64,000 nt of DNA, taken from an uncultured bacterium. Its GTDB lineage: Bacteria > Zhuqueibacterota > QNDG01 > CAYUAG01. The DNA lies in assembly GCA_964554015.1 (NCBI GenBank), contig CAZKMO010000001.1, forward strand, positions 22,756 to 86,755, in the 5' to 3' direction. Within the stretch, counting starts at the first letter, position 1; each line of letters begins with the position of its first letter. Below are positions 6,823 to 63,668 of this stretch, one piece after another. Position numbers and translations under genes: made by a program. The notes under the pieces are model-generated. The model was not told the DNA's origin. It ran no database searches and saw nothing but the letters and a program-made list of their open reading frames with translations.

Positions 6823-6860
6823 ATTCTGAACTGTAATAATAAATAAAAGGGGAAATATAA

Positions 6861-7082: not shown

Positions 7083-7176
7083 ATCATCACATACTGATCA
7101 AAATAAACATGAGTAATATATTATACGTAGTTTTGGTACAATTATTATATAAAAACTAAAAAACATATCATTTATT

Positions 7177-7680: not shown

Positions 7681-7737
7681 ACCACTACTAAAAATAATAA
7701 AATTAAAAAAATATCATTAAGGAGCAACTTATACATT

Positions 7738-8259: not shown

Positions 8260-8356
8260 AAATATTCACCCTTCAGAACTGATGAGTAAAAGTAGAGTTT
8301 AATCTTATATCCGAATTAAATATATTCATTTTTACAAGGAGTAAATTATAAAACTT

Positions 8357-9679: not shown

Positions 9680-9691
9680 AAAAAGGTAACA

Positions 9692-10681: not shown

Positions 10682-10690
10682 AATTCATAT

Positions 10691-22773: not shown

Positions 22774-23635
22774 GATACAAATTTCATTCTACCCGGTTAA
22801 GGGAAAATAAGTGTTAACAGAATTCTCTTTCCTTACCTAAATTTATTATCTTTTACCTTGATTTTTTATAAAAAATTCACCATCATACTAACCAAGGTTA
22901 TTTTAATTTATATTGATGATTAAAAAATATTATGACGGAAAAAGATAAAAATGCCGGAGTTAATTCTTCCCGTATTCGTTTTTGTACCCCGCAATGTGAA
23001 CACGCCTCATTTCCTGTGGATAGGGATATTGATGGGGCAAAAAGCTGTCGAACTTTTTCTGCCCTTTGGTGTGATATTTTAAAAGAATACGTAACCAGGA
23101 ATGCACCCTGCTCGGCTCAGTTTGGTAAACGGAGACCAAAAAGTAACTGGTAGAAATAAAAGGAAAAGGACAAAGGATAAAGAGTTAGTCAGATAAGGTA
23201 ATAATGTACATTACATACATTAATGTATCTTATTATTAAAATTCCTACAAAATTGTAATTATGAATTTATAATCCATCTTGTTTTCTCTGAATGATTTAC
23301 CAAATAGAGATTCATAATTCATTTTGTAGGTTTTAAATACAATATTTCAATTTATAACAGTCATTTACCCCGTTATTTCTTATTTATTTTAGCTAAAAAT
23401 GCGAAAATACTACATAAATGTATTAAATATTTATTAAAATTACAATATTGTCTTTTATTTCTTTCATTTTCTATGCTTCATTTTAAATTTTTTTTTTCCA
23501 GTCCCCTCTTTTAAACATTGTATTTTCAAGTCATTAGGTATATGTAATTTCTTAAATTCTAGATGTATTCTTATATGTCTTACTTCTGGCATAACTATTG
23601 CGAATATATACTTAAATTAACTGAATACGACTATT

Positions 23636-23711
23636 TGGGGTGTAGCATAATTGGCAATGCGCCTGGCTGTTAACCAGGATATTGGAAGTTCGAGTCTTCC
23701 CGCCCCAGCCA
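23636..23711 (+). tRNA. tRNA-Asn (anticodon GTT).
   Basis: A manual cloverleaf fold was made. The acceptor pairing is TGGGGTG/CGCCCCA. The D stem is GCAT/ATGC. The anticodon stem is CCTGG/CCAGG with loop CTGTTAA. The T arm is GGAAG-TTCGAGT-CTTCC. The 3' end is discriminator G + CCA. Confidence 0.75.
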
Positions 23712-23814
23712 TATTTTTTCTGAGACTGTAACGGTGTTAATTTAAATCATATCAGATATTCCCTATTCAAATATTGTACTTTTATTAATTTTTAATTTTA
23801 ATGGAGGATTTTGT

Positions 23815-25227
23815 ATGACCTCAAAAAAATTTTTTGATTTTGCCAAAAGACATAATGCAAAAATGGTTGACTTAAAGTTTACTGATCTCCTCGGAACGTG
23901 GCAGCACTGTACTTTTCCAGTCGATTCCTGGGATGAAAAAACTTTTATCAATGGAGTGGGATTTGATGGTTCATCAATTAGAGGATGGCAAGGTATCCAT
24001 ATGTCCGATATGCTAGGAGTTCCTGTCGCCGATACGGTATGCCTCGATCCTTTTTTCAAAAAACCCACCATCAGTGTGCTTGCCAAGATTGTGGATCCTA
24101 TTACCAAAGAGGATTATTCCCGCGATCCGCGTCATGTGGCCTGGAAAGGAGAGAAATACCTTAAAAAGACAGGTATTGCCGATGTCTGCTACATCGGACC
24201 GGAACCCGAATTTTTTATCTTCGATGAAATCCGTTTCGAACAAAAACAGAATACAGGATTTTATCAAATTGATTCTGTGGAAGGAGCTTGGAATACTAAT
24301 CGTATTGAAGAACCCAACCTCGGATATAAGCCAAGCTACAAAGGAGGATATTTTCCAGTAAGTCCTACTGATACCTATCACGATTTACGCGGAGATATGG
24401 TGGATGAAATGCAAAAAGTAGGGATCGAAGTGGAAGCCCACCATCACGAGGTAGGAACCGGGGGGCAGGCAGAAATAGATATGAAGTATGCAGAACTAGT
24501 CAGGATGGCCGACCAGTTCATGTGGTTTAAATATATCATCAAGAATGTGGCACGAAGAGCAGGCAAAACTGTTACTTTTATGCCCAAACCCATTTTTGAA
24601 GATAACGGTAGCGGAATGCACACCCATGTATCTTTATGGAAAAAAGGGAAACCGCTTTTTGGAGGAAACAAATATGCTGGATTAAGTCAATTGGCCCTCC
24701 ATGCCATTGGGGGATTGCTAAAGCATGCTCCAGCAGTTCTTGCCTTTGCAGCGCCTACCACAAATTCCTATCGCCGACTTGTTCCCGGATTTGAGGCGCC
24801 GGTTCATCTGGTTATGTCGCAGAGGAATCGTTCGGCTGCCGTCCGCATTCCTATGTACCACAGTGATCCTAAAACAAAACGATTTGAATTTCGATGCCCG
24901 GATCCCAGCTGTAATTCCTATCTTGCTTTTACAGCTATACTTATGGCGGTTATTGACGGAATTGAAAATAAAATCGACCCCGGTGAACCCCTGGATCGCG
25001 ACATCTACGAAATGAGTCCCGAAGAATTGGCAGGAAACCATAAAGTTCCCCCATCACTGGGAAAAGCTTTAGAAGCGCTGGAAAAGGATCATTCCTTCCT
25101 CACCAAAGGAGGTGTTTTCACTGATGATCTGATCCAAACCTGGATCACTTACAAAAAAGATTTTGAGCTGGATCCGCTTGCCTTGCGACCCCATCCTTTT
25201 GAATTTCAATTGTATTATGATAGTTGA
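23815..25227 (+). CDS. glnA: Glutamine synthetase type I.
   Basis: A GGAGG RBS is present. The GS-I N-terminal beta-grasp and catalytic-domain motifs ([22 protein letters not shown]) are present. Confidence 0.85.
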
Positions 25228-49120: not shown

Positions 49121-50140
49121 ATGAACAAAATTAATTTAATTGGTCTATCCCGTAAAGAGCTGGGAGACTTTATAAAAAAAATTGATGAGAAAGAATTTCG
49201 TGTCTCTCAGATATGGTCCTGGATCTATGGAAAAAAAGTAAAAAAATTTCAAGAAATGACCAATATATCAAAAAATTTCCGTTCCGGGTTAGATGAAATT
49301 TCCTATGTGGGATCACTTACTCTCCTCGACAAAAAAACATCGGTGAAATCCGGAACTGTGAAATATCTCTGGCAATTGGATGACGGAAATAAAATCGAAT
49401 CTGTATTTATTCCGGAGGGAAAACGGAAAACCATTTGCCTCTCTTCTCAAGTCGGATGTGCTCTGGGATGCAGGTTTTGTGCCACTGCCAATCTGGGATT
49501 TATTCGTAACCTTACTTCATTCGAGATTGTATCCCAAGTATTGGATATAATTAGGAATATACAAGTTACTCCTACCAATCTGGTATTTATGGGTATGGGT
49601 GAACCTCTCTTAAACTATGAAAATCTGATAAAATCACTTAAAATATTAAATGATCCGGAAGGATTAGCCTTTAGTCATAGAAAAATCACTATCTCAACTG
49701 CCGGATTAGTTCCCCAGATCCAAAGATATACCGGAGAAAAACATCCCTTTAAATTAGCAATTTCCCTTAATGCCACTGACGATGCTATACGATCTGACCT
49801 TATGCCCATAAATAGGAAATATCCGCTGGCGCAATTAATAAACGCAGCCAAAGAGTATACGAAAATATCAGGCAAAAGAATTACCTTCGAATATGTACTT
49901 TTAGGTGAGATAAATGATCATCCCCAAGATGCAGAAAAGTTATACCAGTTACTAAATGGATTAAAATGTAAACTCAATCTCATTGTGTACAATACTACCA
50001 AAAATAAATTCCATCCTCCTTCGGAAAAAAAAATCCATAAATTTACAGCCTTGGTCAGAAAACTGACTGTACCGGTTATGATCCGGAACAGCAAGGGAGA
50101 TGATATCCAGGGAGCCTGTGGTCAGCTGGCTGGGAAATGA
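49121..50140 (+). CDS. rlmN: 23S rRNA (adenine2503-C2)-methyltransferase, radical SAM.
   Basis: The radical SAM motif CALGCRFCAT is present. The C-terminal catalytic Cys in GACGQL is present. The RlmN N-terminal domain is present. Confidence 0.8.
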   Translation: MNKINLIGLSRKELGDFIKKIDEKEFRVSQIWSWIYGKKVKKFQEMTNISKNFRSGLDEISYVGSLTLLDKKTSVKSGTVKYLWQLDDGNKIESVFIPEGKRKTICLSSQVGCALGCRFCATANLGFIRNLTSFEIVSQVLDIIRNIQVTPTNLVFMGMGEPLLNYENLIKSLKILNDPEGLAFSHRKITISTAGLVPQIQRYTGEKHPFKLAISLNATDDAIRSDLMPINRKYPLAQLINAAKEYTKISGKRITFEYVLLGEINDHPQDAEKLYQLLNGLKCKLNLIVYNTTKNKFHPPSEKKIHKFTALVRKLTVPVMIRNSKGDDIQGACGQLAGK

Positions 50141-50492
50141 AACGATGATAGTGTGTATAGTTCAGAAATCAGTAATAAGAAACCAGAAGTATCTTGATAT
50201 TGAGGTTAAAGAAACAGAGTAACGGGGTATTGAAGAATTTATATTTCGGATTGATTGTTTTTAGTAATGAAAGAAATTTAATGTTGATATAAAGTTGAAA
50301 AGAAAGTATAATCATTAATGATTTTCCCCCCTTTCTCCGGTTCTCCAATACACCGTTCCTGTAAACCTGATCAGTAGTTTATAAGCGGCAGACTGAATAA
50401 AAGTATTCAAACAATAAAAAATCAACTTGCATTCCTAGACTAATATTATTATTTTAATCATAGTTAATCTCCCAAAAAACTCGAGGTTCAGT

Positions 50493-51239
50493 ATGAAGAT
50501 TGTAATCATTGGCTATGGCAACATGGGCAGGGAAGTGGAAAAAGCTGCTTTAAAGAAAAATCATACTATAATACAAAAAATCGATCCCCAAGCGCAAGGA
50601 GCAGAAACAGCTGAAATTACCCCACAAACGTTATCTGGAGCAGACGTCTGCATTGAATTTACCCATCCGGATAGTGTTGTTGAAAATATAAAAAAAGTTG
50701 TGGAAATAGGAATTCCTATTGTAGTTGGTACTACCAAGTGGTTTGACCACCTGAAAGAGATTGAAACACTGATACAAAAGAAAAACGGTTCCTTATTATA
50801 TGCACCCAATTTTTCTCTGGGAATGAATATATTTTTTAAAATCTGCGAAGTTACTGCCAAGATAATGAACCGTTTTGATGATTATGATATCGGGGGAATG
50901 GAACTTCATCATAACCAAAAAGCCGATGCTCCCTCCGGAACAGCTAAAAAATTGTCTCAGATTTTAATAGATAACATTAAGAGGAAAAAAACACCCGTAT
51001 TTCACCTGGGTGACAGAAAAATTCAGCCGGATGAGCTGCATTTTTCTTATCTGCGGTCTGGAGCAATTCCCGGAACTCATCAGATTGTATTTGATTCTGA
51101 ACCAGATACCATTACCTTAACCCATACTGCCCGCTCCAGACAAGGTTTTGCCAGTGGAGCGATTACTGCTGCAGAATGGATTGTAGGTAAAAAAGGATTA
51201 TTCTCTTTTGATGAAATGATGAATCATTTATTAAAATAA
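50493..51239 (+). CDS. dapB: 4-hydroxy-tetrahydrodipicolinate reductase.
   Basis: The N-terminus MKIVIIGYGNMGR is present. The DapB core EL(H)HNQKADAPSGTA is present. Confidence 0.85.
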   Translation: MKIVIIGYGNMGREVEKAALKKNHTIIQKIDPQAQGAETAEITPQTLSGADVCIEFTHPDSVVENIKKVVEIGIPIVVGTTKWFDHLKEIETLIQKKNGSLLYAPNFSLGMNIFFKICEVTAKIMNRFDDYDIGGMELHHNQKADAPSGTAKKLSQILIDNIKRKKTPVFHLGDRKIQPDELHFSYLRSGAIPGTHQIVFDSEPDTITLTHTARSRQGFASGAITAAEWIVGKKGLFSFDEMMNHLLK

Positions 51240-51254
51240 GGAAAGGAATAACCC

Positions 51255-52142
51255 ATGAAAATAAGAGGAACTTTTACTGCCCTGATTACTCCCTTTAAAA
51301 ATAATAAAGTCGATTACGACGGATTTAAAGAAAATATCAGATTTCAAATAGAAAACGGAATAAATGGTATATTGCCTCTAGGGACAACAGGCGAGACTCC
51401 AACCTTGGAGGAAGATGAACAGAGAAAAATAATCCGGATAGCAGTTAAGGAAACCGATAAAAAAATTCCGGTTATGGTGGGAACAGGAAGCAATTCAACC
51501 AAACACACCATTGAAAATACAAAACAGGCAAAACAGGAAGGAGCAGATATAGCCCTCATAGTTACTCCCTATTACAATAAACCCACTCAAGAAGGGATTT
51601 TTCTGCACTTTAAGAAAGTAACGGAATCTGTAAATATACCAGTAATTGTCTATAACATTAAAGGGCGGACCGGTACTAATATAGAAACTCCCACCTTAAG
51701 AAGAATTGCTGCCCTGCCCCATATTATAGGAGTAAAGGAAGCTTCCGGTGATATTATGCAGATGGGAGATGTAATAAATCAGATAAAAAAAGAATTTCCT
51801 CAATTCTCAGTTATGAGCGGGGATGACAAAATTACCTTACCCCTGCTGGCTTTGGGAGGTGACGGAGTAATCTCAGTGATAAGTAACCTTATTCCTGCCC
51901 AAATAAGCCAGATGGTAGAAGCGGGATTAGCCGGAGATTTTAATAAAGCAAGAAAAATGCACTATGAATTGCTGCCACTAATGACAGGCGCTTTTGTGGA
52001 AACTAATCCTATACCCATAAAAGCCGCTATGCAGATGTGTGGCAAACCTGCCGGAGATGTCCGACTTCCCCTATGTGAATTAAAACCGGAAAACAGAGAA
52101 AAGGTAAAAAAAATACTACAGGATATGGGACTGCTTTCATGA
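51255..52142 (+). CDS. dapA: 4-hydroxy-tetrahydrodipicolinate synthase.
   Basis: The sequence GTTGETPTL and the active-site Lys context (GVKEASG) are present. Length is 295 aa. Confidence 0.85.
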   Translation: MKIRGTFTALITPFKNNKVDYDGFKENIRFQIENGINGILPLGTTGETPTLEEDEQRKIIRIAVKETDKKIPVMVGTGSNSTKHTIENTKQAKQEGADIALIVTPYYNKPTQEGIFLHFKKVTESVNIPVIVYNIKGRTGTNIETPTLRRIAALPHIIGVKEASGDIMQMGDVINQIKKEFPQFSVMSGDDKITLPLLALGGDGVISVISNLIPAQISQMVEAGLAGDFNKARKMHYELLPLMTGAFVETNPIPIKAAMQMCGKPAGDVRLPLCELKPENREKVKKILQDMGLLS

Positions 52143-52984
52143 ATAAAAAACTAAAAGAACAGATTGAGCAATTTTATGAGAAAGATCAGAATGAGTTTAA
52201 AAATTCCTCCCAATGGAAAAGAATCTTCCAAGAATTTATTCAGGGATTAAATTCAGGAAAAATTCGTTCCGCAGAACCTGAAAAAAATATATGGAAAGTA
52301 AACCAATGGATTAAGAAAGGAATTATCCTTGGATTCCGTACTGGTTCCTTGACTGACATGTCCTCAGGAAAATTTACCTATTTTGATAAATCCACCTATC
52401 CTTTAAAAAAGGTAGGTATTAAAGATGAGATTCGCATTGTTCCGGGAGGAACAAGCATACGCTCAGGTTGTTATATTGCTCCTGGAGTGGTAATGATGCC
52501 TCCCTGCTATGTAAATGTAGGTGCCTATGTGGATGAGGGAACCATGCTCGACTCCCATTCCCTAGTGGGAAGCTGTGCCCAGGTGGGGAAGAACTGTCAT
52601 ATTAGTGCTGCTGCCCAGATTGGAGGTGTTCTGGAACCTATCAACGCCAGACCAGTGATAATTGAAAATAATGTCCTGATCGGGGGAAACTGCGGAATTT
52701 ATGAGGGAATTCTAATCAAAAAAAACGCAATACTTGCTTCCGGAGTTATAATAACCTCCTCCACTCCGGTGTATGATCTGGTAAAAAAACAGGTATATAA
52801 AACCACATCCTTGGATCCTTTAACAATTCCTGAAAACAGTGTGGTAGTACCGGGTTCCCGACCGGCTTCCGGAGAATTTGCCCGGGGAAATATGATAAGC
52901 CTGCATACACCGGTTATTGTAAAATACAGGGATGCCAGCAGTAATTCTAAAACTGCACTGGAGGAGGCCCTGCGTACTTCATGA
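52139..52984 (+). CDS. dapD: 2,3,4,5-tetrahydropyridine-2,6-dicarboxylate N-acyltransferase (DapD-type, hexapeptide-repeat).
   Basis: Left-handed beta-helix hexapeptide repeats are present. It sits between dapA and an aminotransferase. It overlaps the dapA stop (ATGA). Confidence 0.65.
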   Translation: MNKKLKEQIEQFYEKDQNEFKNSSQWKRIFQEFIQGLNSGKIRSAEPEKNIWKVNQWIKKGIILGFRTGSLTDMSSGKFTYFDKSTYPLKKVGIKDEIRIVPGGTSIRSGCYIAPGVVMMPPCYVNVGAYVDEGTMLDSHSLVGSCAQVGKNCHISAAAQIGGVLEPINARPVIIENNVLIGGNCGIYEGILIKKNAILASGVIITSSTPVYDLVKKQVYKTTSLDPLTIPENSVVVPGSRPASGEFARGNMISLHTPVIVKYRDASSNSKTALEEALRTS

Positions 52985-54123
52985 AATTCCCCAGAACTAA
53001 GAATATCAAAATCTCAAAAATACGATCTATCTATAGCCAGGCTCCGGAACAATGTATTGATCTGGGCATAGGAAAACCTTTTTGTCCTACTCCTGCTTCC
53101 ATCAAAGAAAAAGCCTGTGCTGCTCTTAGGGAAAATTATACCAGCTATACCCCTACCCGAGGAATTACCGAATTAAGAGAAGCAGTAGCTGAAAGATATA
53201 ATCGTGAGTATAATATAACCATAACTGCCGATAATGTACTGATAACCTGCGGAGTGGCTGAAGCTATTTTTACTTCTATGTTCTCACAACTCCGGAAAAA
53301 TGATGAAGTGTTGATTCCTGATCCCGGATATCCGGCCTATGCTGCTGTTGCAGAATTGTTAGAAGCCCGGCCTGTTTTCTACTCTTTGTCTCTTGAAAAT
53401 AAATTTAGCGCCCGGGCTGAGGATATAATTCCACTCCTCCGCTCCCGAACCAAAATTATAATTTTCAATTCTCCTTCTAATCCTACCGGAGGAATAAATG
53501 AGAAAAAAGAATTAGAGAAAATTGCTCGATATCTGAAAAATAAAAAAATCTGTGTCATCTCGGACCAGGTGTATCACAAACTGAACTATACACACCAACC
53601 CTTAACCTCTCTAACAGATTTCTTGAACCTGGATAACCTTATCCTACTCTCCGGGGTTTCCAAAGAATTTTCCATGACCGGATGGAGAATCGGATGGGCT
53701 TTGTCTTCACCTGAGAACATAGCTGAACTTGCTAAATCTCATCTCTACCAGGTTTCCTGTGCTCCTTCCCTCAGCCAAAAAGCCGCCCTGGAAGCCTTAC
53801 ATTCTGGATCTGAAGAGGTAAAAAATAGTATGCTTAACAACAGAAATCTCATGTTATCTGGACTTAAGAAAATTAATGATCTGAAATATATAATACCAGA
53901 GGCAGGACTCTATTTTTTTGTGGATGTATCAGCCTATGGGACTGGTGATACAATCTGCCAAGAAATATTAAATACAGTTAAGGTAATCACCATACCAGGT
54001 TCTGGATTTGGTAAGAATGGCAAAAATTACATTCGCTTATCATTTGGGGCCAATCCCGAGGATATAAAAGAAGGCATGAAAAGGCTGCAGCAATTTTTTA
54101 ATTCAAAAGCTAAAGATAGCTAA
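52981..54123 (+). CDS. Class I/II PLP-dependent aminotransferase. It may be N-succinyl-diaminopimelate aminotransferase.
   Basis: It has the aminotransferase I/II fold (NSPSNPTG, SKEFSMTGWRIG with the Lys). It is in the dap operon. Confidence 0.6.
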   Translation: MKFPRTKNIKISKIRSIYSQAPEQCIDLGIGKPFCPTPASIKEKACAALRENYTSYTPTRGITELREAVAERYNREYNITITADNVLITCGVAEAIFTSMFSQLRKNDEVLIPDPGYPAYAAVAELLEARPVFYSLSLENKFSARAEDIIPLLRSRTKIIIFNSPSNPTGGINEKKELEKIARYLKNKKICVISDQVYHKLNYTHQPLTSLTDFLNLDNLILLSGVSKEFSMTGWRIGWALSSPENIAELAKSHLYQVSCAPSLSQKAALEALHSGSEEVKNSMLNNRNLMLSGLKKINDLKYIIPEAGLYFFVDVSAYGTGDTICQEILNTVKVITIPGSGFGKNGKNYIRLSFGANPEDIKEGMKRLQQFFNSKAKDS

Positions 54124-54180
54124 TCAGTAAAATCATAAATCATGAAAGTTGAGTTGTAAGAGGGAGAGAATAAAGATTAA

Positions 54181-54240
54181 AGAAAAAATACAAAATACAA
54201 AAGATACAAGCTTGTCCTGAGCGAAAGCGAAGGGATAAAA
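54181..54240 (+). repeat. Intergenic copy of the dispersed ACAAAAGATA.../GTCCTGAGCGAAAGCGAAGGGAT repeat motif.
   Basis: The sequence AGAAAAAATACAAAATACAAAAGATACAAGCTTGTCCTGAGCGAAAGCGAAGGGAT resembles the minus-strand sequence at 34741-34830 and the repeat arms at 34549/34730. Confidence 0.5.
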
Positions 54241-54383
54241 AGTAATAGTGATAGATTCATATAACTATTCTTTGCTTATGAACCTTGTGTTTTCTTTGAT
54301 AAAACTTAATTTAAAACTAACATTATAAGAAATTCTATTTAAAATTAAATATACTATAAAATTATTGAATTAAAAGGAAAAGT

Positions 54384-55277
54384 ATGAGCAGTTCTAAAAT
54401 TATAATATGGCTCAAGCAAATCAGAGCTCCCTTTTTAGTCTTATCAGTGGTTCTGGTTTTAATCGGTGTAGGCTTTGCTTACAGAGAAGGATATGCAAGC
54501 TGGTTTTATACTTTACTGCTGCTAACAGGGGTAATATTGGCTCACATTTCGGTCAATTTATTTAATGAGTTATCCGACTTTAAAACCGGAATTGACTTCC
54601 ATACCACTCCCACTCCTTTTAGCGGTGGAAGTGGTATGCTGCAAAAGCAAAACACTGATCCCAAGACAGTAAAAACTATTGCTTATATCTGTATTTTTTT
54701 GAGTGCTATAATAGGATTATACTTTTTCTTAAGCAGGGGATGGTTAATTCTTGTTTTTATGATAAGTGGAGCTTTTGCTGCCCGTTTTTACACTTCTCAT
54801 CTTACCCGCTATCTATTAGGAGAACTGGTGGCAGGACTCACTCTGGGGACATTTGTGGTACTGGGTAGTTTTTATGCTCTATCTGGGTTCCTGAATCCTC
54901 TAGTTATATGGGTATCTGTTCCTGCTGGTATACTTACTTCCCTGCTGCTGCTATTAAATGAATTCCCGGATAGAGAAGCTGATCAAAAAGGAGGACGGCA
55001 TCATCTAATTATTCACTTTGGTACTAAAACTTCCTCAAAAATATACCTTATAGGAATGGTGGTAACTTTTTCCATGATATGCCTCACTCCTCTGCTATTC
55101 AACCTTTCTTATCTATTTCTTATCTCACTTTCCACAGTTCCCTTAGCTGTGAAAGCTGTTCTCATCACCAGAAAATATCATGATGATGAAAAAAATCTTC
55201 TCCCTGCCCTGGGATTGAATGTAGGAGTAATAATATTAACTGATTTGTTAATTGCAATAGGGAGCATACTATCATAA
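54384..55277 (+). CDS. menA: UbiA-family prenyltransferase (MenA-like 1,4-dihydroxy-2-naphthoate polyprenyltransferase).
   Basis: It has about 8-9 TM helices. The Asp-rich motifs NELSDFKTGID and NEFPDREADQK are present. Confidence 0.55.
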   Translation: MSSSKIIIWLKQIRAPFLVLSVVLVLIGVGFAYREGYASWFYTLLLLTGVILAHISVNLFNELSDFKTGIDFHTTPTPFSGGSGMLQKQNTDPKTVKTIAYICIFLSAIIGLYFFLSRGWLILVFMISGAFAARFYTSHLTRYLLGELVAGLTLGTFVVLGSFYALSGFLNPLVIWVSVPAGILTSLLLLLNEFPDREADQKGGRHHLIIHFGTKTSSKIYLIGMVVTFSMICLTPLLFNLSYLFLISLSTVPLAVKAVLITRKYHDDEKNLLPALGLNVGVIILTDLLIAIGSILS

Positions 55278-55328: not shown

Positions 55329-55718
55329 ATGACTAAAGATAAAAAAATTATTAAAAATTTCCTACAACAGGTTCTGGGCTGCCAGTGTCCGGAAAAGGTT
55401 TTCCACAATATACAGTGGGGGAATAAAAACCAGATTCTGGAGATAACTGTATCTAATCAACTGCTGATCAATATTTTTTTGGAACCCTTAAAAGAATTGA
55501 ATAAAAAACACATCATTGATGTACTTAAAGTGGGACAGAAAAAAAGAGATTATAAAAATTTTAACAGATTTCGGTTAGTGATTCCTTCCCATCAGGTAGC
55601 AGAAATGCAAAAACAATATAATCAAATAATAAAAAAAATTTTCCCTCAGGATAACAAAATCCATCTGCATATCGTAGAAAATAAACAGTTAAAAAATATT
55701 TTTAGTATTATCCGATAA
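55329..55718 (+). CDS. Hypothetical protein of 129 aa.
   Basis: This is an ORF only. It is Lys-rich and has no recognisable motif. Confidence 0.3.
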   Translation: MTKDKKIIKNFLQQVLGCQCPEKVFHNIQWGNKNQILEITVSNQLLINIFLEPLKELNKKHIIDVLKVGQKKRDYKNFNRFRLVIPSHQVAEMQKQYNQIIKKIFPQDNKIHLHIVENKQLKNIFSIIR

Positions 55719-55740
55719 TAATAAAAAATTATTTATGTTG

Positions 55741-56388
55741 TTAATTTTTTTGCTTGCTTTCCTGTTCCGCCTTCTCTATCTGGGGTTTAAGATATTTTTC
55801 AAAACATTCGGGACAAACACCATGACTGAATTGAAGCTCGGAATGATTGGAAATATAGGTTTCAACCTGTTGCCAGTAATTTTTATCATCTCTTACTTTT
55901 TTGCAGTAGCAACATATGGGTAAAAGACCCTGTAGTATTTCTACTTTATTCAGCGCCTCTTGTAATTTTCGAACATGATGATTAAGGTTCGCCTCCAAAT
56001 TAATAACCCGTAATCCCACATTAATCCTGGCTCGCAGTTCCTTAAGATTGAAAGGTTTAGTCATGTAGTCATCCGCACCAGCATCCAAACCACTCACGAT
56101 ATTTTCTAATTCGGATAAAGATGTTAAAATAATTATATAGGTGTAATAATCACATTTCAGCTTACGAATTTTCCTGCATAATTCTATGCCGTCCATCTCA
56201 GGCATCATCCAGTCAATAATGGCAAGATGGGGCAGATCTGATTGCACCTGTGCCCAGGCTTTTCCCCCATCTTCTACCGCTGTAACCGTATATCCCCACT
56301 TCTGAAGGGACGAAGTTACTAATTTTCTGGAAATAACATCATCCTCAGCTACCAATATTTTAAGGTCTTTCTTTTTGTAAAAACTCAT
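55741..56388 (-). CDS. Response regulator: a receiver domain fused to a Cys-rich C-terminal module (CCYCKK...W...HGVCPEC).
   Basis: The REC motifs [19 protein letters not shown] and K in TKPF are present. The C-terminal 60 aa carry C-x-C-x2-C...H-x2-C-x2-C. Confidence 0.6.
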   Translation of the reverse strand: MSFYKKKDLKILVAEDDVISRKLVTSSLQKWGYTVTAVEDGGKAWAQVQSDLPHLAIIDWMMPEMDGIELCRKIRKLKCDYYTYIIILTSLSELENIVSGLDAGADDYMTKPFNLKELRARINVGLRVINLEANLNHHVRKLQEALNKVEILQGLLPICCYCKKVRDDKNYWQQVETYISNHSELQFSHGVCPECFEKYLKPQIEKAEQESKQKN

Positions 56389-56771
56389 ATTAATTTCTCA
56401 ATAGTTTTGATTAATATGTCGTGACTAACGGTTTTAACTAAAAACTCATCTGCACCGCAATGCTTGGCTAGATCCCTGTCTTTATGCATATCCCGCGATG
56501 TTAATACAATAAATGGAATATTCCTATAATTCTTATCATATTTTAAAAACCTGCAAATTTTATGCCCGTCCATTTGAGGAAGCAATAAATCACAAATAAT
56601 CAGATCCGGTTTCTTTGCCTTTGCCAGATTAAACCCGGTAAGTCCGTTTTCAGCTGAAATCACCCTATACCCACTGGACTCCAGTTTTAATCGTACTATC
56701 TTTAAAAATGAAGGATTATCTTCAATAAATAATATTAATGGTTTCTGTAAGCTTTCCATCTTTTTCTCCAT
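56385..56771 (-). CDS. Single-domain response regulator (CheY-like receiver).
   Basis: The REC motifs ILFIEDN, LIICDLLLPQMDG and the K in VKT are present. The start was set at internal ATG 56771, which is an inference; the ORF track extends to 56816. Confidence 0.6.
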   Translation of the reverse strand: MEKKMESLQKPLILFIEDNPSFLKIVRLKLESSGYRVISAENGLTGFNLAKAKKPDLIICDLLLPQMDGHKICRFLKYDKNYRNIPFIVLTSRDMHKDRDLAKHCGADEFLVKTVSHDILIKTIEKLI

Positions 56772-56787
56772 TTTAAGCAATAAGTAC

Positions 56788-58260
56788 TTAATCCAATATT
56801 CCTTCCACTTTGGCAACTAATTTTTCATTATCTATTGGTTTTTCCATTACAGGTAATGTGCTTTCTCCATTCAAATCATTTAGTCTTTTATAATCAATCT
56901 CCACCCCACTAATTATAATAGCCGGAATAGAAATTTTTTCTTTTTTCATTTGTTCCAGAATTTCATAACCGTCAATTTCAGGGAGCATTAAATCCAGAAT
57001 GACCAGAGATGGATTTTGAGATTTAATTTTCTCAAGCGCACTCTTCCCATCATAAGCAGCTATGAATTTGTAGCCTTTATATTTCAGTAATTTCCCTACT
57101 ATATCCACAATTTTCTCAGAATCATCAACTACCAATACGGAAGGAAACTCTGCTTTCTCCAAAGTGAAATAAAAGGTTGTTCCTTTTCCCAATTCTGAAT
57201 CTACAGTAATGTTTCCTCCATGCTTTTCCACTAAAGCTTTGGAAATCGCCAGTCCCAGACCAGTTCCCTTGTATCCAGAGCCTTGGGTTCTGTCAAACTG
57301 TTCAAACCGTGAAAATAATTTCGGTACATTCTCTTTGGCTATTCCTGTCCCGGTATCAGACACCCAGCAGGTTACATATTTTTCCTGATCTTTAAAACCT
57401 AAACTTATTTCTCCTTTTAAAGTAAATCTTATACTGTTACTCACTAAATTGGTAAAAATCTGAATAATCCTATCTCGGTCAGCATATATATTCAAAGAAT
57501 TATCAGGAATAGTAAGCGCAAACTTCAAACCCTTTTCCGATACTTGTTGAGTAAAATCCCTCTCTATTTTTTTTGCCACCGCACATAGATCCACTGAAGA
57601 TTTGTGAATACTCAATTTACCAGCTTCAATCTTTGCCGCATCTAAAAGATCAGTTACTAACCGATTCAGCCGGTCAATGTTTTCCAGTGAATCACTGAGT
57701 ATATCCTGCTGCTTTTCATTCAATTCTCCGATAACTCCATCCAGGCATAGAGATATACCGCCTCGCATAACAGCGATCGGTGTTCTCAGTTCATGGGTAA
57801 CGGTTGAAATAAATTCATCTTTCAAATTATCTAATTCTTTGAGACGTTCAATATGGGAATTAAGCTGATTCTCCAACCCTAAAATTCTTTGTCCCACCTC
57901 GATACGTGCCATTAATTCCTGTGTATCGAAGGGTTTACTGATATAATCATCGGCACCGGCAGACATGCCTTTTGAGAGATCTTCTTTTTGCCCCTTAGCG
58001 GTTAGAAAAATAATATAAGTATATTTATTATCATTTTTATTACGGACTTTCTTACACACTTCAACTCCATCCATCTCCGGCATCATCCAGTCTAAAATAA
58101 TCAACTGAGGTGCATTTTTTTTCTTAAGTATCTCCCATGCCTCCAATCCGTTAACTGCATCAGTTACCAAAAATCCCCGCTTCTCTAAAACTCTCCGTAA
58201 TATTTTTCTTGAAATAGGATCATCTTCAGCAATTAATATTTTTGTTTTATTTTCAGACAT
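56788..58260 (-). CDS. Hybrid histidine kinase: REC-HisKA-HATPase_c-REC.
   Basis: The N-terminal REC (ILIAEDDP...[11 protein letters not shown]) is present. The H-box is THELRTPI. The G-boxes are [10 protein letters not shown]. The C-terminal REC is VLVVDDS...[11 protein letters not shown]. Confidence 0.75.
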
Positions 58261-60784
58261 TTACATATTCCTTCCCTTCCGTGCAGAAAAAATCCTTTAT
58301 CAGCTGTAACTGTTTTTCCAATTCCTGCAAAACATGAAGACTTTTCTCCTGGTCAAAATCAGAATCTATTTTTTCTAACTCAAAAGCAAGATCGTATGCT
58401 TTTTGAACGCCAAAATTACTGATTGCACCTTTGAAACTATGAGCTCTTTCCTTCAGTTTTTCAACCTCACCTGCCTGAATTAATTTCTCTAATTCGGTTA
58501 CCTGTCGGGGATATTCATCTAAAAAAGATTCGACCATTTCTTCTAACAAATCTCTGTCTCCATCCAAACGTTTGAGTAAATCCGTTATATTTATCTTTAC
58601 TACCTTTGCATTAGTAGAATGTTTAATTTCTGGATTTGCTTTCTCACTTTGAAATTCTGAACCATTGATTACTTTATTTATTATCTTATAAACATCCTCG
58701 GATTTAACAGGTTTGGAAATATATTCATCCATACCCGCAGAGATGCATTTTCCCCGATCCTTGGCCAGGGCATGGGCGGTCAAGGCTATGATGGGAATAT
58801 GGCCACCTTTTTCTTTCTCATATTTTCTGATTAATTTTGTGGATTCAAAACCATCCATTTGCGGCATCTGTACATCCATAAAAATTAAGTCATATGCATT
58901 CTGCTTAACTTTCTCCAGTGCCTCTTTACCATTTCCTACCTGGCTTACTTCCCATCCCTTTTTACTTAATAGAGTATGAACAACTCTGCTGTTAATAGGA
59001 TTATCCTCAGCCAGCAGTATTTTCAAATTCTCAGGAAGATTATTTTCCCTATATGATAATCTTTTCTTTTGTGATTGCTTATAACCGATAATTTCAACTT
59101 TTTGTTTACTGTTAAGTTCATAGATCATTGCCTTTATTAAATTAGATTTTTTGACCGGCTTTATAAGAAAACTAGAGACCCCCAAATCTTTCTTCTTTTT
59201 ATTTCTTTCCGGTCTATCTGCAGAAGTTAATATGATTACCGGAAGTTTGGCAAACCTCTTATCCTTACGCAATTCTTCTGTAAATTCTAAACCATTCATT
59301 TCTGCAATGTTCAAATCACATAGTACAATTGAATATTTTTCCCCCTTCTTATCGTTTTGAGTTAATGTTTTTAATCCAAGTATACAATTATCTTTCAGGG
59401 TCGGAAGCATCCCTAAGCTGGTTACCATCTCTTTTAATACAATTCTATTTGTTTTATTATCATCTATAATAAGAACCTTCTTATTTTTAAGTATTTTAAA
59501 ATCCTCGGATGATGTTGATTTTTTACCTAACTGTTTTTTAAATTGAGCTGTAAAATGAAATATACTTCCCGGTCCGTCACTCGAAATGCTACTATTTTTT
59601 ACTGGACTTTCCACCCATATATCACCATCCATTAAGTCAACCAGTTTGGATGATATAGCCAGTCCCAATCCTGAACCACCATATTTACGAGTGGTAGAGC
59701 CATCGGCTTGTTCAAATACCTCAAAAATAAACTTCTGCTTATCTGGTGATACCCCTATACCGGTATCCTGAACCATAAAATGGAGTTTTGTGTAATCCTG
59801 TTCATTCTCTTCAGAATCGATCCTCAGTATAATTTCTCCCTGGTTGGTAAATTTAATTGCATTATTTATAAGATTGATCACTATTTGACCTAACCGGTGA
59901 GGATCACCGATTAATCTATCCGGAACCCCGGGGAGTACATGAACAATCAATTCCAGTCCTTTCTCCGAGGCTTTAGCGGAAAATGTTTGCACTATCTCCC
60001 CGATTGTATCTCTTAACATAAATGGTAGTGATTCCATTTCCAGTTTTCCGGCTTCAATTTTGGAATAGTCTAAAATATCGTTAATAATAACCATTAATAA
60101 ATCTGCGGAAACTTTTACTCCTTCCAGATAATCTTTTCTATCCTCATCGGATTCAGCCTCCAAAGCAAGTTCCGTCATTCCAATAATACCATTCATAGGA
60201 GTACGTATTTCATGACTCATGTTGGCCAGAAATTCACTCTTGGCGCGGGTTGCAGCCTCGGCTTTACGTTTGGCAATATCTAACTCGTCAATCATATGAA
60301 ATAACCTTGAGGTATTTTGCTCTTCTTTTTCATGGGCCAATTGCAGATCTTTAGCTTGTTTCCTTAATTCCTCTTCGGTTCGTTTTCTTTGTTCAATTTC
60401 TTTTTTAAGAATTTTATTTAAGGCTTCCAGATCCGCTGCTTTTTCTTCAATTCCATTATACAAATCCGATGTCTTTTCATCAAAATATTTTATTCGATAA
60501 AGATATATTCCATAAGCAACTCCCACTATTAATAAAAACATTAATCCTATAAACCAATGAGTTTGCCAGAAAGGTGGAGTGATATTTATTGCTAAATCTG
60601 AATATCCATTACCCGACTCATTATAAACAACCATAATTCTCTCATAATCCACATCATTTGCCTTACAATTTTCAGATACCATTAAAATTATGTTCAATAG
60701 AACTGCAATCCATACTGCTAAAATTTGAATTTTCTTTAAAGAAAATAAATTACAGTACATGTTCTTCCCACTTATTTTCCGCAA
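58253..60784 (-). CDS. Membrane-anchored hybrid sensor histidine kinase: TM-coiled coil-HisKA-HATPase_c-REC-REC-HPt.
   Basis: The TM segments and the H-box [10 protein letters not shown] are present. The G-box is [10 protein letters not shown]. Two REC domains are present ([10 protein letters not shown]...; [10 protein letters not shown]...[11 protein letters not shown]). The HPt motif is [11 protein letters not shown]. Confidence 0.75.
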
Positions 60785-61529
60785 AATAATCTTTTACATG
60801 AATCATCTCTTCTTTTAATCTTTTAAATACTTCTAAGGCAGCATCCATTCGCGATTCTTTTCCCAGATTCTCAAGCTCAACTACAAGTTCATAAGCTCGC
60901 TCTGCTCCAAAACTAGCTACAGCACCTTTAAAACTATGAGCTCTCTTCTGAAGCTGACGGGAATCCTTCTTTTGGATCATTTCTCCTATTCCTGAAAGTT
61001 GTTTGGGAAATAAGGTAAGAAAATCCTCAATTAACTCCTGAAAAAGTTCCTTGTCACCTTCTACCGTTTCCATTGCCTTAGATAGATTAATACAAAAATC
61101 ATCATTCGTCCAACTGCTACTTTCACGTACTACTTTACTTATGGTCTGCCAAAGTTCTTCAACTTCAATTGGCTTTGAAATAAAAGCATCCATTCCTGCT
61201 TCTATACATTTATCCATATCCTCTTTCATAGCTGAAGCAGTTAAAGCAATTATGGGAATATGTTCTCCGGTAGTTTTTTCTTGTTTTCTAATCTCTTGGG
61301 TGGTTTCCAAACCATCCATAAGCGGCATTTTAGCATCCATTAAAATTAGATCAAAATATTCACGTTCCAAGCCACTCAATACTTCTTTTCCATTTTCAAC
61401 CGAGGTTACCCTAAATCCTTTTTTCTTTAATATGGTCTCTATTACTATTTTATTTATGGAATTATCTTCTGCTAATAAAATTTTTAATGATTTTTCCGGA
61501 AAAGGCATTACATTATTATTTGATTTCAT
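60750..61529 (-). CDS. Response regulator receiver + HPt phosphotransfer protein.
   Basis: The REC motifs [11 protein letters not shown] and [13 protein letters not shown] are present. The HPt motif is [11 protein letters not shown]. Confidence 0.7.
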
Positions 61530-61583: not shown

Positions 61584-62045
61584 TTAAAACTCATCGGTTA
61601 GGGTATAGATTATATTTATTTTTTTATTTTTTGTGTTTACCATTTCAGAAGATATATTATAATTTATTCTGCACTCTCCAGAATCATTCGCATTCCAAAT
61701 TAAAACATTTTTAATTTTGGGGACCATAGTTATAAGTTTCATTTCACTATCCTGACCTTTTTTTGTTAATCCTATACTGCATCCTTTATATATTGTATCC
61801 GTTGTGACTGTAATTTTTTTACTTCTATCGGATAGATGCCATTTTAAGGTAATATCATTGGATATATTCTTTCCCCTTACATCTTTTGATTGAGACAAAC
61901 TTTGATTTTCTTTTATAAAAAATTCATTCCTGCTAATTATTTTTATCCGAATTGAATGTGAACATATATCCTCAGCTCCGACGTCCAGCAGGAAATCGAA
62001 TAAAGTAAACAAAAATAAAAATATAATTAAAAGAAAACGTCTCAC
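61584..62045 (-). CDS. Small secreted hypothetical protein inside the phosphorelay operon.
   Basis: It has a signal peptide and conserved Cys residues. There is no known motif. Confidence 0.35.
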   Translation of the reverse strand: MRRFLLIIFLFLFTLFDFLLDVGAEDICSHSIRIKIISRNEFFIKENQSLSQSKDVRGKNISNDITLKWHLSDRSKKITVTTDTIYKGCSIGLTKKGQDSEMKLITMVPKIKNVLIWNANDSGECRINYNISSEMVNTKNKKINIIYTLTDEF

Positions 62046-62071: not shown

Positions 62072-62446
62072 TTAATTTAAACTCTCCAAAACGGATCTTA
62101 ATTTATTAAAGGTAAAAGGCTTAAGAAGCACATCTTCTACATTATTCTCATTAAACTTATGTTCATTGAATATGTAATCACTACCCATTCCAGTAACCAG
62201 AACTATTTTTTGTTCTGGTTTATATTTGCGTAGTTTCTGTATTAAATCCCAACCAGATATACCGGGTAAAAGCAAATCTACCATCACCAGATCGAATGTT
62301 TTTCTTTTAAATTTCTGTAAAGCATCCGTGCCAGTTTCAGATACTGTTGTATGGTATCCTAACTGGGAAATCATTTTTTCCAAAACTTCCAGGACAATTC
62401 TCTCGTCATCTACAATTAAAATCCGTTTCATTAATACCCCCTGCAT
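62072..62446 (-). CDS. Single-domain response regulator (CheY-like receiver).
   Basis: The REC motifs ILIVDDERIV, LVMVDLLLPGISG and the K in LKPF are present. Confidence 0.65.
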   Translation of the reverse strand: MQGVLMKRILIVDDERIVLEVLEKMISQLGYHTTVSETGTDALQKFKRKTFDLVMVDLLLPGISGWDLIQKLRKYKPEQKIVLVTGMGSDYIFNEHKFNENNVEDVLLKPFTFNKLRSVLESLN

Positions 62447-62938: not shown

Positions 62939-63178
62939 TTACTCATCCTGAATTCCACCTGAATGGAAAATCTGTCGGATATTATCAATATTGATATTAG
63001 AAGCAGCTCTTTTGTTTTCTTCAACTATTCTTTGATAAATTTCTTCTCTATACACAGTTATTTCTCTGGGAGCTTTAATACCAACCTTAACTCCTCTTCC
63101 CTGAACAGAGAGAATAGTGAGTTTTATATTCTCTCCTAAAAGAATACTTTCTCCAACTTTTCTTGCTAATACAAGCAC
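62939..63178 (-). CDS. csrA: Carbon storage regulator CsrA.
   Basis: The sequence [48 protein letters not shown] is a near-canonical CsrA sequence. Confidence 0.9.
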
Positions 63179-63191
63179 CGTTCACTCCATT

Positions 63192-63668
63192 TTATTTAAT
63201 TGAATTAACAATTTTATGACGAATTAAATAATTCGAATCAGTTAAAATTATCTGTCTTCCCCACTTATCCGTTCTAGATAAGAGTACAGGAGCACGCATA
63301 TTAACCGTAACATCATCCTGAGAATTTCCGATGGTAACAATAGTATAAATGTATTCCCAATCCTTGACATCCTTAATATTAGGTTTATAATCCGGTATTA
63401 AAATTTTTGGATTAATAAGTGGAAAAAATAAATTTGGATCATCTATTGAAATTAGAAGTTTAAAAGGGCGATATTTTTCTCCACTCCAGATTATATAATC
63501 TTTAAACTCTTTATAGCCATAAAGACCTTCCTGAAAAGTATAAATGCTATCATCCGTATATTCAATTTTACCAACTTGAGTATCTAGATAATAAACATCC
63601 TTTTCTTGTTGTCTTTTTTTTTGTTTCTCTTTTTTTAACATTATTGTATCCTTTAAAATATTCCCCAT
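63192..63668 (-). CDS. fliW: FliW-like CsrA-antagonist/assembly factor.
   Basis: It lies immediately upstream of csrA in the same orientation. Its size and the FxEGLxGYxEF motif (FQEGLYGYKEF) fit FliW. Confidence 0.55.
   Translation of the reverse strand: MGNILKDTIMLKKEKQKKRQQEKDVYYLDTQVGKIEYTDDSIYTFQEGLYGYKEFKDYIIWSGEKYRPFKLLISIDDPNLFFPLINPKILIPDYKPNIKDVKDWEYIYTIVTIGNSQDDVTVNMRAPVLLSRTDKWGRQIILTDSNYLIRHKIVNSIK

What the first reader, a model, noticed from the sequence alone, without database searches (positions are those of the whole stretch)
55741..56388. Receiver domain fused to a conserved Cys-rich C-terminal module (LLPICCYCKKVRDDKNYWQQVETYISNHSELQFSHGVCPECF)
The last ~60 residues carry C-C-x-C-x2-[RK]-D-D-x3-W ... 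H-x2-C-x2-C. This could be a zinc-ribbon-like or redox-sensitive metal site. It occupies the position of the output domain in a response regulator. I recognise this block as recurring at the C-termini of sensory proteins in anaerobes, but I know of no assigned function. It may be the true output (metal- or redox-dependent partner binding) of the phosphorelay above.
Basis: seen in the sequence. Interest (0 to 1): 0.5.

Follow-up and report, generated by a model that had tools for sequence, protein, structure and literature searches.

The report
Uncatalogued Cys4 output domain on response regulator
The last gene of a phosphorelay operon encodes a receiver domain joined by a fixed-length coiled coil to a ~45-residue four-cysteine domain that no searched database or paper describes, yet it ends about 20,000 families of bacterial sensor proteins and so looks like a major signalling output of unknown function.

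Summary
Window 55741..56388 (-) encodes a 215-aa protein: a complete receiver domain (aa 11-123), a long helix (aa 115-154), and a C-terminal module, LLPIC-x-x-CKK[IV]RDD-x-NYWQQVE-x-Y-x3-HS-x3-FSHG[IV]CP-x-C.

The conserved ligand pattern is CxxC-x29-CPxC, with spacing fixed in 230 of 232 sequences.

The module has no match in Pfam, NCBIfam or PDB, by sequence or by fold. I found no paper on it.

An exhaustive profile search finds about 24,000 clusters at 50% identity (19,829 at E<=1e-10). They span many phyla, aerobes included.

The module is nearly always the extreme C-terminus. It follows REC, PAS, GAF, HAMP, MASE3, MASE6, VUPS, PocR, Reg_prop or SBP sensor domains. Many of these proteins are membrane receptors with no other cytoplasmic domain.

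The REC-to-module linker is 46 residues, or 46 +/- 7, which fits a rigid coiled coil.

Best reading: a new metal-binding (probably Zn, treble-clef-like) transmitter domain, switched through a dimeric coiled coil. Its likeliest action is regulated binding to an unlinked partner. Metal, partner and function remain untested.

The parts
55741..56388 (-). Whole gene: 215-aa response regulator made of REC, coiled coil and Cys4 module. The stop codon is 55741-55743. The ATG overlaps the stop of the upstream REC gene by 4 nt (ATGA).
   Evidence: an identical protein is called on three metagenome contigs
56020..56358 (-). Receiver (REC) domain, aa 11-123. The acidic pair D16/D17, phospho-acceptor D59 (nt 56212-56214), T89 and K111 are all present.
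   Evidence: Pfam PF00072 at 99.8 bits. AF2 pLDDT >90 over this stretch. Foldseek matches to PhoP/YycF receivers at E~1e-12. Residues read directly from the sequence.
55927..56019 (-). Signalling-helix / coiled-coil linker, aa 124-154. It continues REC helix alpha5; the AF2 helix spans aa 115-154.
   Evidence: AF2 secondary structure. The distance from KPF to PIC is 46 aa in 216 of 228 relatives, otherwise mostly 39 or 53. This stretch plus REC is 50% identical over 139 aa to the REC + S-helix of the neighbouring REC-HisKA kinase.
55804..55926 (-). Cys4 module core, aa 155-195: LLPIC159-C-Y-C162-KKVRDDKNYWQQVETYISNH182SELQFSH189GVC192-P-E-C195. Pattern CxxC-x29-CPxC.
   Evidence: No Pfam, NCBIfam or PDB relative.
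55744..55803 (-). C-terminal helix and tail, aa 196-215. It is semi-conserved ([YF]-x-[KR]-x-V-x-P-[EQ]-L) and then variable.
56385..56816 (-). Upstream single-domain REC gene, called as 124 aa on related contigs. Same operon.
56788..58260 (-). REC-HisKA-HATPase_c-REC kinase, 490 aa. Its N-terminal REC + S-helix is paralogous to the target's.
58253..60784 (-). Hybrid histidine kinase, 843 aa: TM, HisKA, HATPase_c, two REC domains and Hpt.
60750..61529 (-). REC-Hpt phosphotransfer protein, 259 aa.
62072..62446 (-). Single-domain REC, 124 aa, at the head of the cluster.

Best explanation
The gene encodes the terminal response regulator of a multi-step phosphorelay. Its effector is an uncatalogued domain of about 45-60 residues that binds a metal through four cysteines.

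The four invariant cysteines (C159, C162, C192, C195) most likely hold one structural metal ion, probably Zn2+. The predicted fold is treble-clef-like: a CxxC knuckle in a short hairpin, a helix (Y171-H182), then CPxC capping the last helix.

The domain sits at the tip of a parallel dimeric coiled coil that continues REC helix alpha5. Proposed switch: phosphorylation of D59 repacks the REC dimer and shifts or rotates the coiled coil. This is the mechanism shown for the Rec-GGDEF cyclase DgcR. The shift would change how the two modules are presented.

The module then signals through its heavily conserved polar face (K163, K164, R166, D167, D168, N170, Q173, Q174, E176, S188, H189). The likeliest action is binding or releasing a conserved partner protein that is not encoded nearby.

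The same module serves as the only cytoplasmic transmitter for thousands of PAS, GAF, HAMP, MASE and other sensor proteins.

Shown: the anatomy, the conservation, the architectures and the linker periodicity. Inferred: the metal, the dimer, the register switch and partner binding.
For: Output role:
- The module is at the extreme C-terminus in 78 of 79 loci.
- It follows REC, PAS, GAF, HAMP, MASE3, VUPS, Reg_prop/Y_Y_Y, SBP_bac_3+PAS, MASE6 and PocR domains, with no other effector domain present.
- When a further domain follows, it is another input domain: PilZ with intact RxxxR and DxSxxG motifs in six clusters, hemerythrin, or REC.

Metal site: four Cys are 100% conserved with spacing fixed at 29. 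In the AF2 model the first pair lies in a beta-bridged knuckle and the second pair at a helix N-terminus.

Coiled-coil transmission:
- AF2 predicts a continuous helix over aa 115-154.
- The linker is 46 aa in 216 of 228 relatives, with 39 (4 cases) and 53 (2 cases) the commonest exceptions, i.e. steps of one heptad.
- REC + linker is 50% identical to that of the adjacent REC-HisKA kinase. The homology ends where the H-box or LLPIC begins, so the two are alternative transmitters on one input module.
- The DgcR mechanism is described in PMC8041772.

Functional surface: about 30 of 39 core positions are at least 75% conserved across phyla, including many polar residues.

Against DNA binding: the core is mildly acidic (mean net charge -1.3, pI ~6) and many carriers are integral membrane receptors.

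Operon position: it is the last gene, with a 4-nt start/stop overlap.
Against: - No metal, dimer or partner has been observed.
- AF2 confidence for the module is only moderate (pLDDT 54-79 in the full-length model, 64-89 for the module alone). I could not measure Cys-Cys geometry.
- No conserved non-two-component neighbour was found in 80 loci, so there is no candidate partner.
- The very high conservation would also fit small-molecule binding or catalysis at a dimer interface.
- Minimal proteins made of a TM helix, a coil and the module (P0032, P0047) could mean the module itself senses something.
- H189 is 99% conserved but is replaced by Tyr in P0047, so its role (ligand or functional residue) is unclear.
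Confidence: 0.45

Rival explanations
1. The module is a nucleic-acid-binding zinc finger. The protein is then a transcription factor (as NCBI's label 'response regulator transcription factor' implies) or an ANTAR-like RNA-binding regulator. Dimerisation on phosphorylation would create a two-fold DNA- or RNA-binding unit.
For: Cys4 fingers often bind nucleic acids. The module has a conserved K163-K164-x-R166 patch and aromatic Y171/W172. Its size and its position on a coiled coil resemble ANTAR output domains (general knowledge). Galperin and co-authors proposed DNA/RNA binding for an archaeal CxxC...CxxC response-regulator output domain, HalOD2 (PMC5847659).
Against: The core is acidic (mean net charge -1.3, pI ~6). 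Many carriers are polytopic membrane receptors (MASE3, MASE6, VUPS, Reg_prop-TM). There is no similarity to any DNA-binding family in Pfam, NCBIfam or PDB. NCBIfam transcription-factor models match only the REC part and fall far below their cut-offs. One relative adds a separate winged-helix-like tail (P0313).
Confidence: 0.15
2. The module is mainly a second input: a redox- or metal-sensing centre. It could be a Zn-thiolate switch like RsrA/Hsp33, or a rubredoxin-type Fe(Cys)4 site. Oxidation or metal loss would gate the protein, so it integrates redox state with phosphorylation.
For: It has four invariant Cys, including a CPxC at a helix N-terminus, the geometry of redox-active dithiols. The ligand spacing CxxC-x29-CPxC is identical to rubredoxin's, by my recollection of the C. 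pasteurianum sequence (spacing seen). Minimal proteins of TM helix, coil and module exist with no other sensor. The family is common in redox-stratified habitats and in Desulfobacterota.
Against: Thousands of proteins would then be made of sensors only, with no output. There is no detectable homology to rubredoxin (hhalign probability 1.6%; no Pfam rubredoxin hit even at E<=5). The conserved polar surface goes well beyond what a metal site needs. The family is equally common in aerobes.
Confidence: 0.15
3. The two modules at the coiled-coil tip form a composite site that binds a small molecule such as a nucleotide second messenger, or catalyses a reaction on one. In that case it would be a miniature enzymatic or ligand-handling transmitter that takes the place GGDEF occupies elsewhere.
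For: Nearly every residue is conserved, including a KK-x-RDD cluster that resembles phosphate and Mg2+ ligands. The partner sensor domains (MASE3/6, VUPS, PocR, PAS, GAF, REC of the PleD/DgcR type) are those typical of c-di-GMP enzymes. A recurrent REC-module-PilZ fusion exists, and REC-GGDEF genes lie next to REC-module genes in Terriglobia.
Against: At about 45 residues per chain the module is very small for an active site. No known nucleotide-binding motif or fold match was found. The PilZ fusion is rare, at six clusters.
Confidence: 0.1
4. The module is only a structural dimerisation cap. The REC-coil-cap protein would then act as a phosphate sink or connector in the relay and have no effector function of its own.
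For: The operon already holds several REC-only proteins. REC-module genes are sometimes sandwiched between two kinases. The coiled-coil hydrophobic seam runs into L156 and C159 (sequence inspection). The Rad50 zinc hook was a weak profile hit (E=3).
Against: A cap would not need about 30 conserved positions, many of them polar. It would make no sense as the sole cytoplasmic domain of membrane receptors.
Confidence: 0.1

Closest known systems
REC-coiled-coil-GGDEF response regulators (DgcR of Leptospira biflexa; PleD/WspR type)
   Same: The input half is the same: a receiver of a closely related subfamily, with alpha5 extended into a dimeric coiled coil of discrete length and heptad periodicity (PMC8041772). 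REC-GGDEF genes sit beside REC-module genes in some genomes.
   Different: The effector is a ~45-residue Cys4 module rather than a ~170-residue GGDEF cyclase. No catalytic activity can be inferred.
ANTAR-type regulators (AmiR, EutV, NasR)
   Same: A very small output domain (~55 aa) sits on a coiled coil and is combined with REC, PAS or GAF inputs (general knowledge).
   Different: ANTAR is an all-helical RNA-binding domain without a metal. It has a Pfam model, which does not match here, and is not typical of membrane receptors.
HalOD2, an archaeal response-regulator output domain with two CxxC motifs (Galperin et al. 2018, PMC5847659)
   Same: It is a predicted Zn-finger output domain at the C-terminus of response regulators, following a helical segment.
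   Different: HalOD2 is confined to a few halobacteria and its CxxC pairs are 20-25 residues apart, against a fixed 29 here. Homology was not tested because no sequences were to hand.
Treble-clef zinc domains that dimerise or bind proteins (papillomavirus E6/E7 zinc domain, ZAD)
   Different: There is no significant sequence or fold similarity (hhalign probability 1% against E7; Foldseek E 5.5). The resemblance is a lead, not membership.
Rubredoxin
   Same: The ligand pattern CxxC-x29-CPxC is identical.
   Different: No homology is detectable (hhalign probability 1.6%; no Pfam hit). The region between the knuckles is predicted helical here, not the rubredoxin sheet.

Membership tests
CheY-like receiver domain (Pfam PF00072) | Profile match above the curated threshold | tested here: met
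   99.8 bits against a cut-off of 30.2, aa 11-123
CheY-like receiver domain (Pfam PF00072) | Catalytic set: acidic pair, phospho-acceptor Asp, Thr/Ser, Lys | tested here: met
   D16/D17, D59, T89 and K111 read from the translation
CheY-like receiver domain (Pfam PF00072) | (beta-alpha)5 fold | tested here: met
   AF2 pLDDT >90 with five strand-helix units. Foldseek matches PhoP, YycF and PhoB receivers at E~1e-12, TM 0.9.
CheY-like receiver domain (Pfam PF00072) | Phosphorylation by a cognate kinase | not testable with these tools
   Only the operon context with two kinases and Hpt domains is available
OmpR/PhoB-type 'response regulator transcription factor' (the label some databases give relatives) | C-terminal winged-helix DNA-binding domain (Trans_reg_C) | tested here: not met
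   No Pfam hit beyond aa 123. NCBIfam PhoB, RpaB and similar models align only to aa ~10-140 and score ~109 bits against cut-offs of 296-330.
Cys4 zinc finger, treble-clef or zinc-ribbon class | Two pairs of metal ligands (CxxC ... CxxC) that are invariant | tested here: met
   C159, C162, C192 and C195 are 100% conserved in 189 cores, with fixed spacing of 29
Cys4 zinc finger, treble-clef or zinc-ribbon class | First pair on a knuckle or hairpin, second pair at the N-terminus of a helix (treble clef) | tested here: inconclusive
   AF2 secondary structure agrees: beta-bridge at 157/164 and a helix starting at 193. pLDDT is only 54-89 and no coordinates were available to measure S-S distances.
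Cys4 zinc finger, treble-clef or zinc-ribbon class | Bound metal ion | not testable with these tools
   Needs ICP-MS or a PAR assay on purified protein
Cys4 zinc finger, treble-clef or zinc-ribbon class | Significant similarity to a described zinc-finger family | tested here: not met
Rubredoxin | CxxC-x29-CPxC ligand pattern | tested here: met
Rubredoxin | Sequence or profile homology to rubredoxin | tested here: not met
   hhalign probability 1.6% over 8 columns. No Pfam rubredoxin hit in 48 members at E<=5.
ZAS anti-sigma zinc motif | H-x3-C-x2-C motif | tested here: not met
   The sequence has H189-x2-C192-x2-C195. No zf-HC2 Pfam hit.
DksA/TraR C4 zinc finger after a coiled coil | CxxC-x17-CxxC and the Pfam DksA/TraR profile | tested here: not met
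   The spacing is 29 and there is no Pfam hit
Signalling-helix (S-helix) coupled transmitters | Continuous helical linker of discrete length with heptad periodicity between the input and output domains | tested here: met
   AF2 helix over aa 115-154. Linker of 46 aa in 216 of 228 relatives, with 39 and 53 as the main alternatives.

The most novel reading that the evidence does not exclude
The module is a new, phylum-spanning class of signalling transmitter, comparable in reach to ANTAR or PilZ-type modules, with a mechanism not yet seen in bacterial signalling. One example would be a metal-thiolate centre at the tip of a coiled coil whose inter-subunit geometry, metal occupancy or thiol redox state is switched by the sensor and read by a global target. 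Another would be a composite mini-site that handles a second messenger. It would define a signalling pathway currently missing from the census of bacterial signal transduction.
Probability: 0.2. Interest if true: 0.85.

Novelty: new variant of a known kind. Interest (0 to 1): 0.62.

Why it matters
Response regulators and one-component sensors are classified by their output domains, and proteins without a recognised output are usually filed as stand-alone receivers or mislabelled. Relatives of this protein are named 'response regulator transcription factor', 'OmpR family', 'RsbU phosphatase' or 'RpfG phosphodiesterase'.

About 20,000-24,000 protein clusters end in one extremely conserved Cys4 module with no database entry. 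They occur in Acidobacteriota, Verrucomicrobiota, Planctomycetota, Desulfobacterota, Nitrospirota, Spirochaetota, Cloacimonadota and other phyla.

If the module is a real transmitter, a sizeable share of signalling in environmentally dominant but poorly studied phyla runs through an unknown mechanism.

The protein is small (215 aa) and soluble, and it has a clear phospho-switch. That makes metal analysis, structure determination and partner screens directly feasible.

Tried and rejected
Database and structure searches that found nothing:
- Pfam and NCBIfam scans of the whole protein, of the C-terminus alone, and of 48 + 10 relatives at permissive E-values. Only sub-threshold Rua1_C, knuckle-only DUF3039 (10-12 residues), E6, zf-C4pol and Thioredoxin_2 hits appeared. 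I reject them as Cys-pattern noise.
- PDB by sequence profile: best E 0.45, including a curious Rad50 zinc-hook hit at E=3.

Genome context:
- I clustered 702 ORFs from 80 loci. Only kinases and receivers recur. A lineage-specific synteny in Cloacimonadota (an S41-protease-like gene upstream, by my reading of its sequence) is not functional linkage.
- A downstream second kinase is seen in some loci (L085-L088 and others) but is not general.

Literature: nine full-text searches, including exact motif strings, plus look-ups inside four papers on the S-helix, archaeal two-component systems, c-di-GMP sensors and DgcR. None describes this module. The library holds open-access papers only, so absence is not proof.

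Other:
- tblastn against plasmids gave a single hit, an IS21-disrupted GAF-module gene in Dongshaea marina. It is uninformative.
- CXXCK resembles the NrfA-type heme c motif. I rejected this because the domain is cytoplasmic, following REC.
- The + strand ORF 55735..55923 (62 aa) overlaps the module antisense. I treat it as spurious.

Full report
THE OBSERVATION

The ORF at window 55741..56388 on the minus strand starts with ATG and encodes 215 aa. Its translation contains the quoted string. Pfam finds a receiver domain at aa 11-123 (99.8 bits against a cut-off of 30.2). It finds nothing credible for the last 70 residues. The best hit there is Rua1_C at 14-18 bits against a cut-off of 27.

NCBIfam models of PhoB, RpaB, OmpR and similar proteins align only with aa ~10-140 and fall far below their thresholds. 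D16/D17, D59, T89 and K111 are all present, so the receiver looks competent for phosphorylation (sequence inspection).

The start codon overlaps the stop of the upstream REC gene by 4 nt. The gene closes a minus-strand cluster:
- REC (62072-62446)
- REC-Hpt (60750-61529)
- hybrid kinase (58253-60784)
- REC-HisKA-HATPase-REC kinase (56788-58260)
- REC (56385-56816)
- the target (55741-56388)

IS THE MODULE REAL AND CONSERVED?

The 76 C-terminal residues alone retrieve relatives at E down to 3e-29. The full protein retrieves about 4,000 clusters. The best 120 are nearly all 203-217 aa, 54-81% identical and cover 89-100% of the query.

Alignments A1, A2 and A3 and a position table from 189 distinct cores define the module:

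P-I-C-x-[YS]-C-K-K-[IV]-R-[DN]-D-x-[NG]-Y-W-x-x-[VI]-[ED]-x-Y-[IVL]-x-x-H-[ST]-x-x-x-F-[ST]-H-[GS]-[IV]-C-P-x-C

P157, I158, C159, C162, R166, W172, C192, P193 and C195 are invariant. The CxxC to CPxC spacing is exactly 29 in 230 of 232 sequences. H189 is 99% conserved and H182 is 91%. One relative, P0047, has Tyr at position 189.

An exhaustive HMMER search of 1.84 billion cluster representatives found 23,979 hits at E<=1e-3 and 19,829 at E<=1e-10. I ran a control with the same profile and library size:
- the module alone scores 114.5 bits;
- the target with its module removed scores 30.9 bits (E 0.02);
- REC-coil paralogues without a module score at most 19 bits.
The counts therefore reflect the module itself.

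The record titles name Acidobacteriota/Terriglobia, Rokubacteria, Verrucomicrobiota, Planctomycetota, Cloacimonadota, Desulfobacterota, Nitrospirota, Spirochaetota, Gemmatimonadota, Dehalococcoidia and Bacteroidota. The family is not confined to anaerobes.

ARCHITECTURE

In 78 of 79 loci the module lies 45-96 residues from the stop codon. The domains before it are REC, PAS, GAF, HAMP, MASE3, VUPS, Reg_prop/Y_Y_Y, SBP_bac_3+PAS, sCache, MASE6 and PocR.

Many carriers are polytopic membrane or periplasmic-sensor receptors in which the module is the only recognisable cytoplasmic domain. Tandem [MASE6-module]x2 and [REC-module]x2 proteins also exist.

When something follows the module, it is another input domain:
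- a canonical PilZ with RxxxR and DxSxxG intact, found in six clusters that are 53-100% identical to each other;
- hemerythrin, in L080;
- REC, in P0301 and P0307.

No known effector domain co-occurs with the module. Proteins made only of sensors would make no sense, so I infer that the module carries the output.

LINKER

AF2 on the 139-sequence alignment gives mean pLDDT 83 for the whole protein. It predicts REC alpha5 running on as one helix from aa 115 to 154.

The distance from the REC KPF motif to PIC is 46 residues in 216 of 228 relatives. The commonest exceptions are 39 (4 cases) and 53 (2 cases), which is plus or minus one heptad.

REC plus linker is 50% identical over 139 aa to the N-terminal REC plus S-helix of the neighbouring REC-HisKA kinase. 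The similarity stops where one protein continues into the H-box and the other into LLPIC. The module is therefore an alternative transmitter on a shared input-and-coiled-coil cassette. The crystallographically established analogue for such a cassette is DgcR. There, pseudo-phosphorylation switches the coiled-coil register and repositions the two effector domains (PMC8041772).

FOLD

AF2 on the module alone gives pLDDT 77. It predicts a beta-bridged knuckle around C159/C162, a helix at Y171-H182, a loop, and a final helix that starts at P193, so C192 and C195 cap it. This is the treble-clef arrangement (general knowledge of zinc-finger classes) rather than a two-hairpin ribbon. Confidence is moderate, and I had no coordinates to measure distances.

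WHAT DOES IT DO?

Evidence against DNA binding:
- The core is mildly acidic (mean net charge -1.3, pI ~6).
- Many carriers are membrane receptors.

Evidence against a merely structural cap: about 30 of 39 core positions are at least 75% conserved, including many polar ones (K163, K164, R166, D167, D168, N170, Q173, Q174, E176, S188, H189).

Genome context offers no partner. Among 702 ORFs from 80 loci, only kinases and receivers recur. In Terriglobia the gene lies between two kinases and upstream of a REC-GGDEF gene.

My best-supported reading, at confidence about 0.45, is this. Phosphorylation of D59 is transmitted through a dimeric coiled coil to two metal-stabilised modules. Their conserved face then binds or releases a conserved partner that is not encoded nearby.

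Four rivals remain open, and the report sections state what would refute each:
- a nucleic-acid-binding finger;
- a redox or metal sensor;
- a small-molecule site formed at the dimer interface;
- a structural cap.

COMPARISON AND NOVELTY

The receiver half is an ordinary member of the CheY-like family. The labels that databases give to relatives are not supported: 'response regulator transcription factor', 'OmpR family', 'RsbU phosphatase', 'RpfG' and 'PleD family'. None of those output domains is present.

The module itself has no entry in Pfam (a copy whose newest models date from 2025), NCBIfam release 20 or the PDB. Nine full-text searches and look-ups inside four relevant papers found no description of it.

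The nearest idea in the literature is HalOD2. It is a halobacterial response-regulator output domain with two CxxC motifs 20-25 residues apart, predicted to bind DNA or RNA (PMC5847659).

I rate the finding as a new variant of a known kind: familiar sensor and receiver proteins carrying an undescribed and very widespread transmitter domain. The literature search covers open-access papers only, so an earlier description elsewhere cannot be excluded.

VERDICT

Its mechanistic part is untested. Interest is 0.62, for three reasons:
- the family is large and extremely conserved;
- it sits at the output position of many signalling proteins in understudied phyla;
- the question of what it does is now directly testable with a small soluble protein.

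Noticed in passing
window 62939-63178 (-) and 63192-63668 (-): A csrA-like gene (79 aa, [12 protein letters not shown]...) and a fliW gene (Pfam FliW, 85.8 bits) lie directly upstream of the phosphorelay cluster on the same strand. This may link the cluster to flagellar or post-transcriptional control.
   Followed up: partly
window 55329-55718 (+): A 129-aa ORF convergent with the target has no Pfam hit and a CQC motif near its N-terminus. It is conserved next to the target on related contigs (L001, L081-L083).
   Followed up: partly
window 61584-62045 (-): A 153-aa ORF with a hydrophobic N-terminus and no Pfam hit is embedded between the REC and REC-Hpt genes of the cluster. It may be an exported or periplasmic accessory protein.
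   Followed up: no
window 56788-58260 (-): The REC-HisKA-HATPase-REC kinase has an N-terminal REC + S-helix that is 50% identical to the target's. The two look like a recent duplication followed by a swap of transmitter.
   Followed up: yes
L085-L088 (Terriglobia contigs), 3775-11329: The gene order is conserved: kinase, REC-module, kinase (4-nt overlap with the REC-module gene), REC-GGDEF. The module protein could act between two kinases or alongside c-di-GMP signalling.
   Followed up: partly
P0212, P0319-P0323 (metagenome proteins); L084 1664-2695: A recurrent REC-coil-module-PilZ architecture of 340-351 aa, in six clusters 53-100% identical. The c-di-GMP-binding motifs RxxxR and DxSxxG are intact in P0212.
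   Followed up: partly
P0177, P0178 and about ten similar proteins: Proteins of about 520-550 aa consist of two tandem [MASE6 membrane domain - coil - module] units. The module can therefore be internal when the whole unit is duplicated.
   Followed up: partly
P0032 (103 aa), P0047 (133 aa): These minimal proteins consist of one transmembrane helix, a short coil and the module. P0047 has Tyr in place of the near-invariant H189.
   Followed up: no
L089 (Dongshaea marina plasmid NZ_CP028898), 816-4111: An annotated GAF-domain gene and an unannotated module remnant are separated by an IS21 transposase gene. This looks like a GAF-module gene disrupted by the insertion, and it was the only plasmid hit.
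   Followed up: partly
window 49121-55277 (+): Housekeeping genes flank the locus. By my reading of the sequences these are a radical-SAM RlmN-like gene and a dapB-dapA-dapD-aminotransferase lysine-pathway cluster. A UbiA-family prenyltransferase is confirmed by Pfam. None shows a link to the finding.
   Followed up: no
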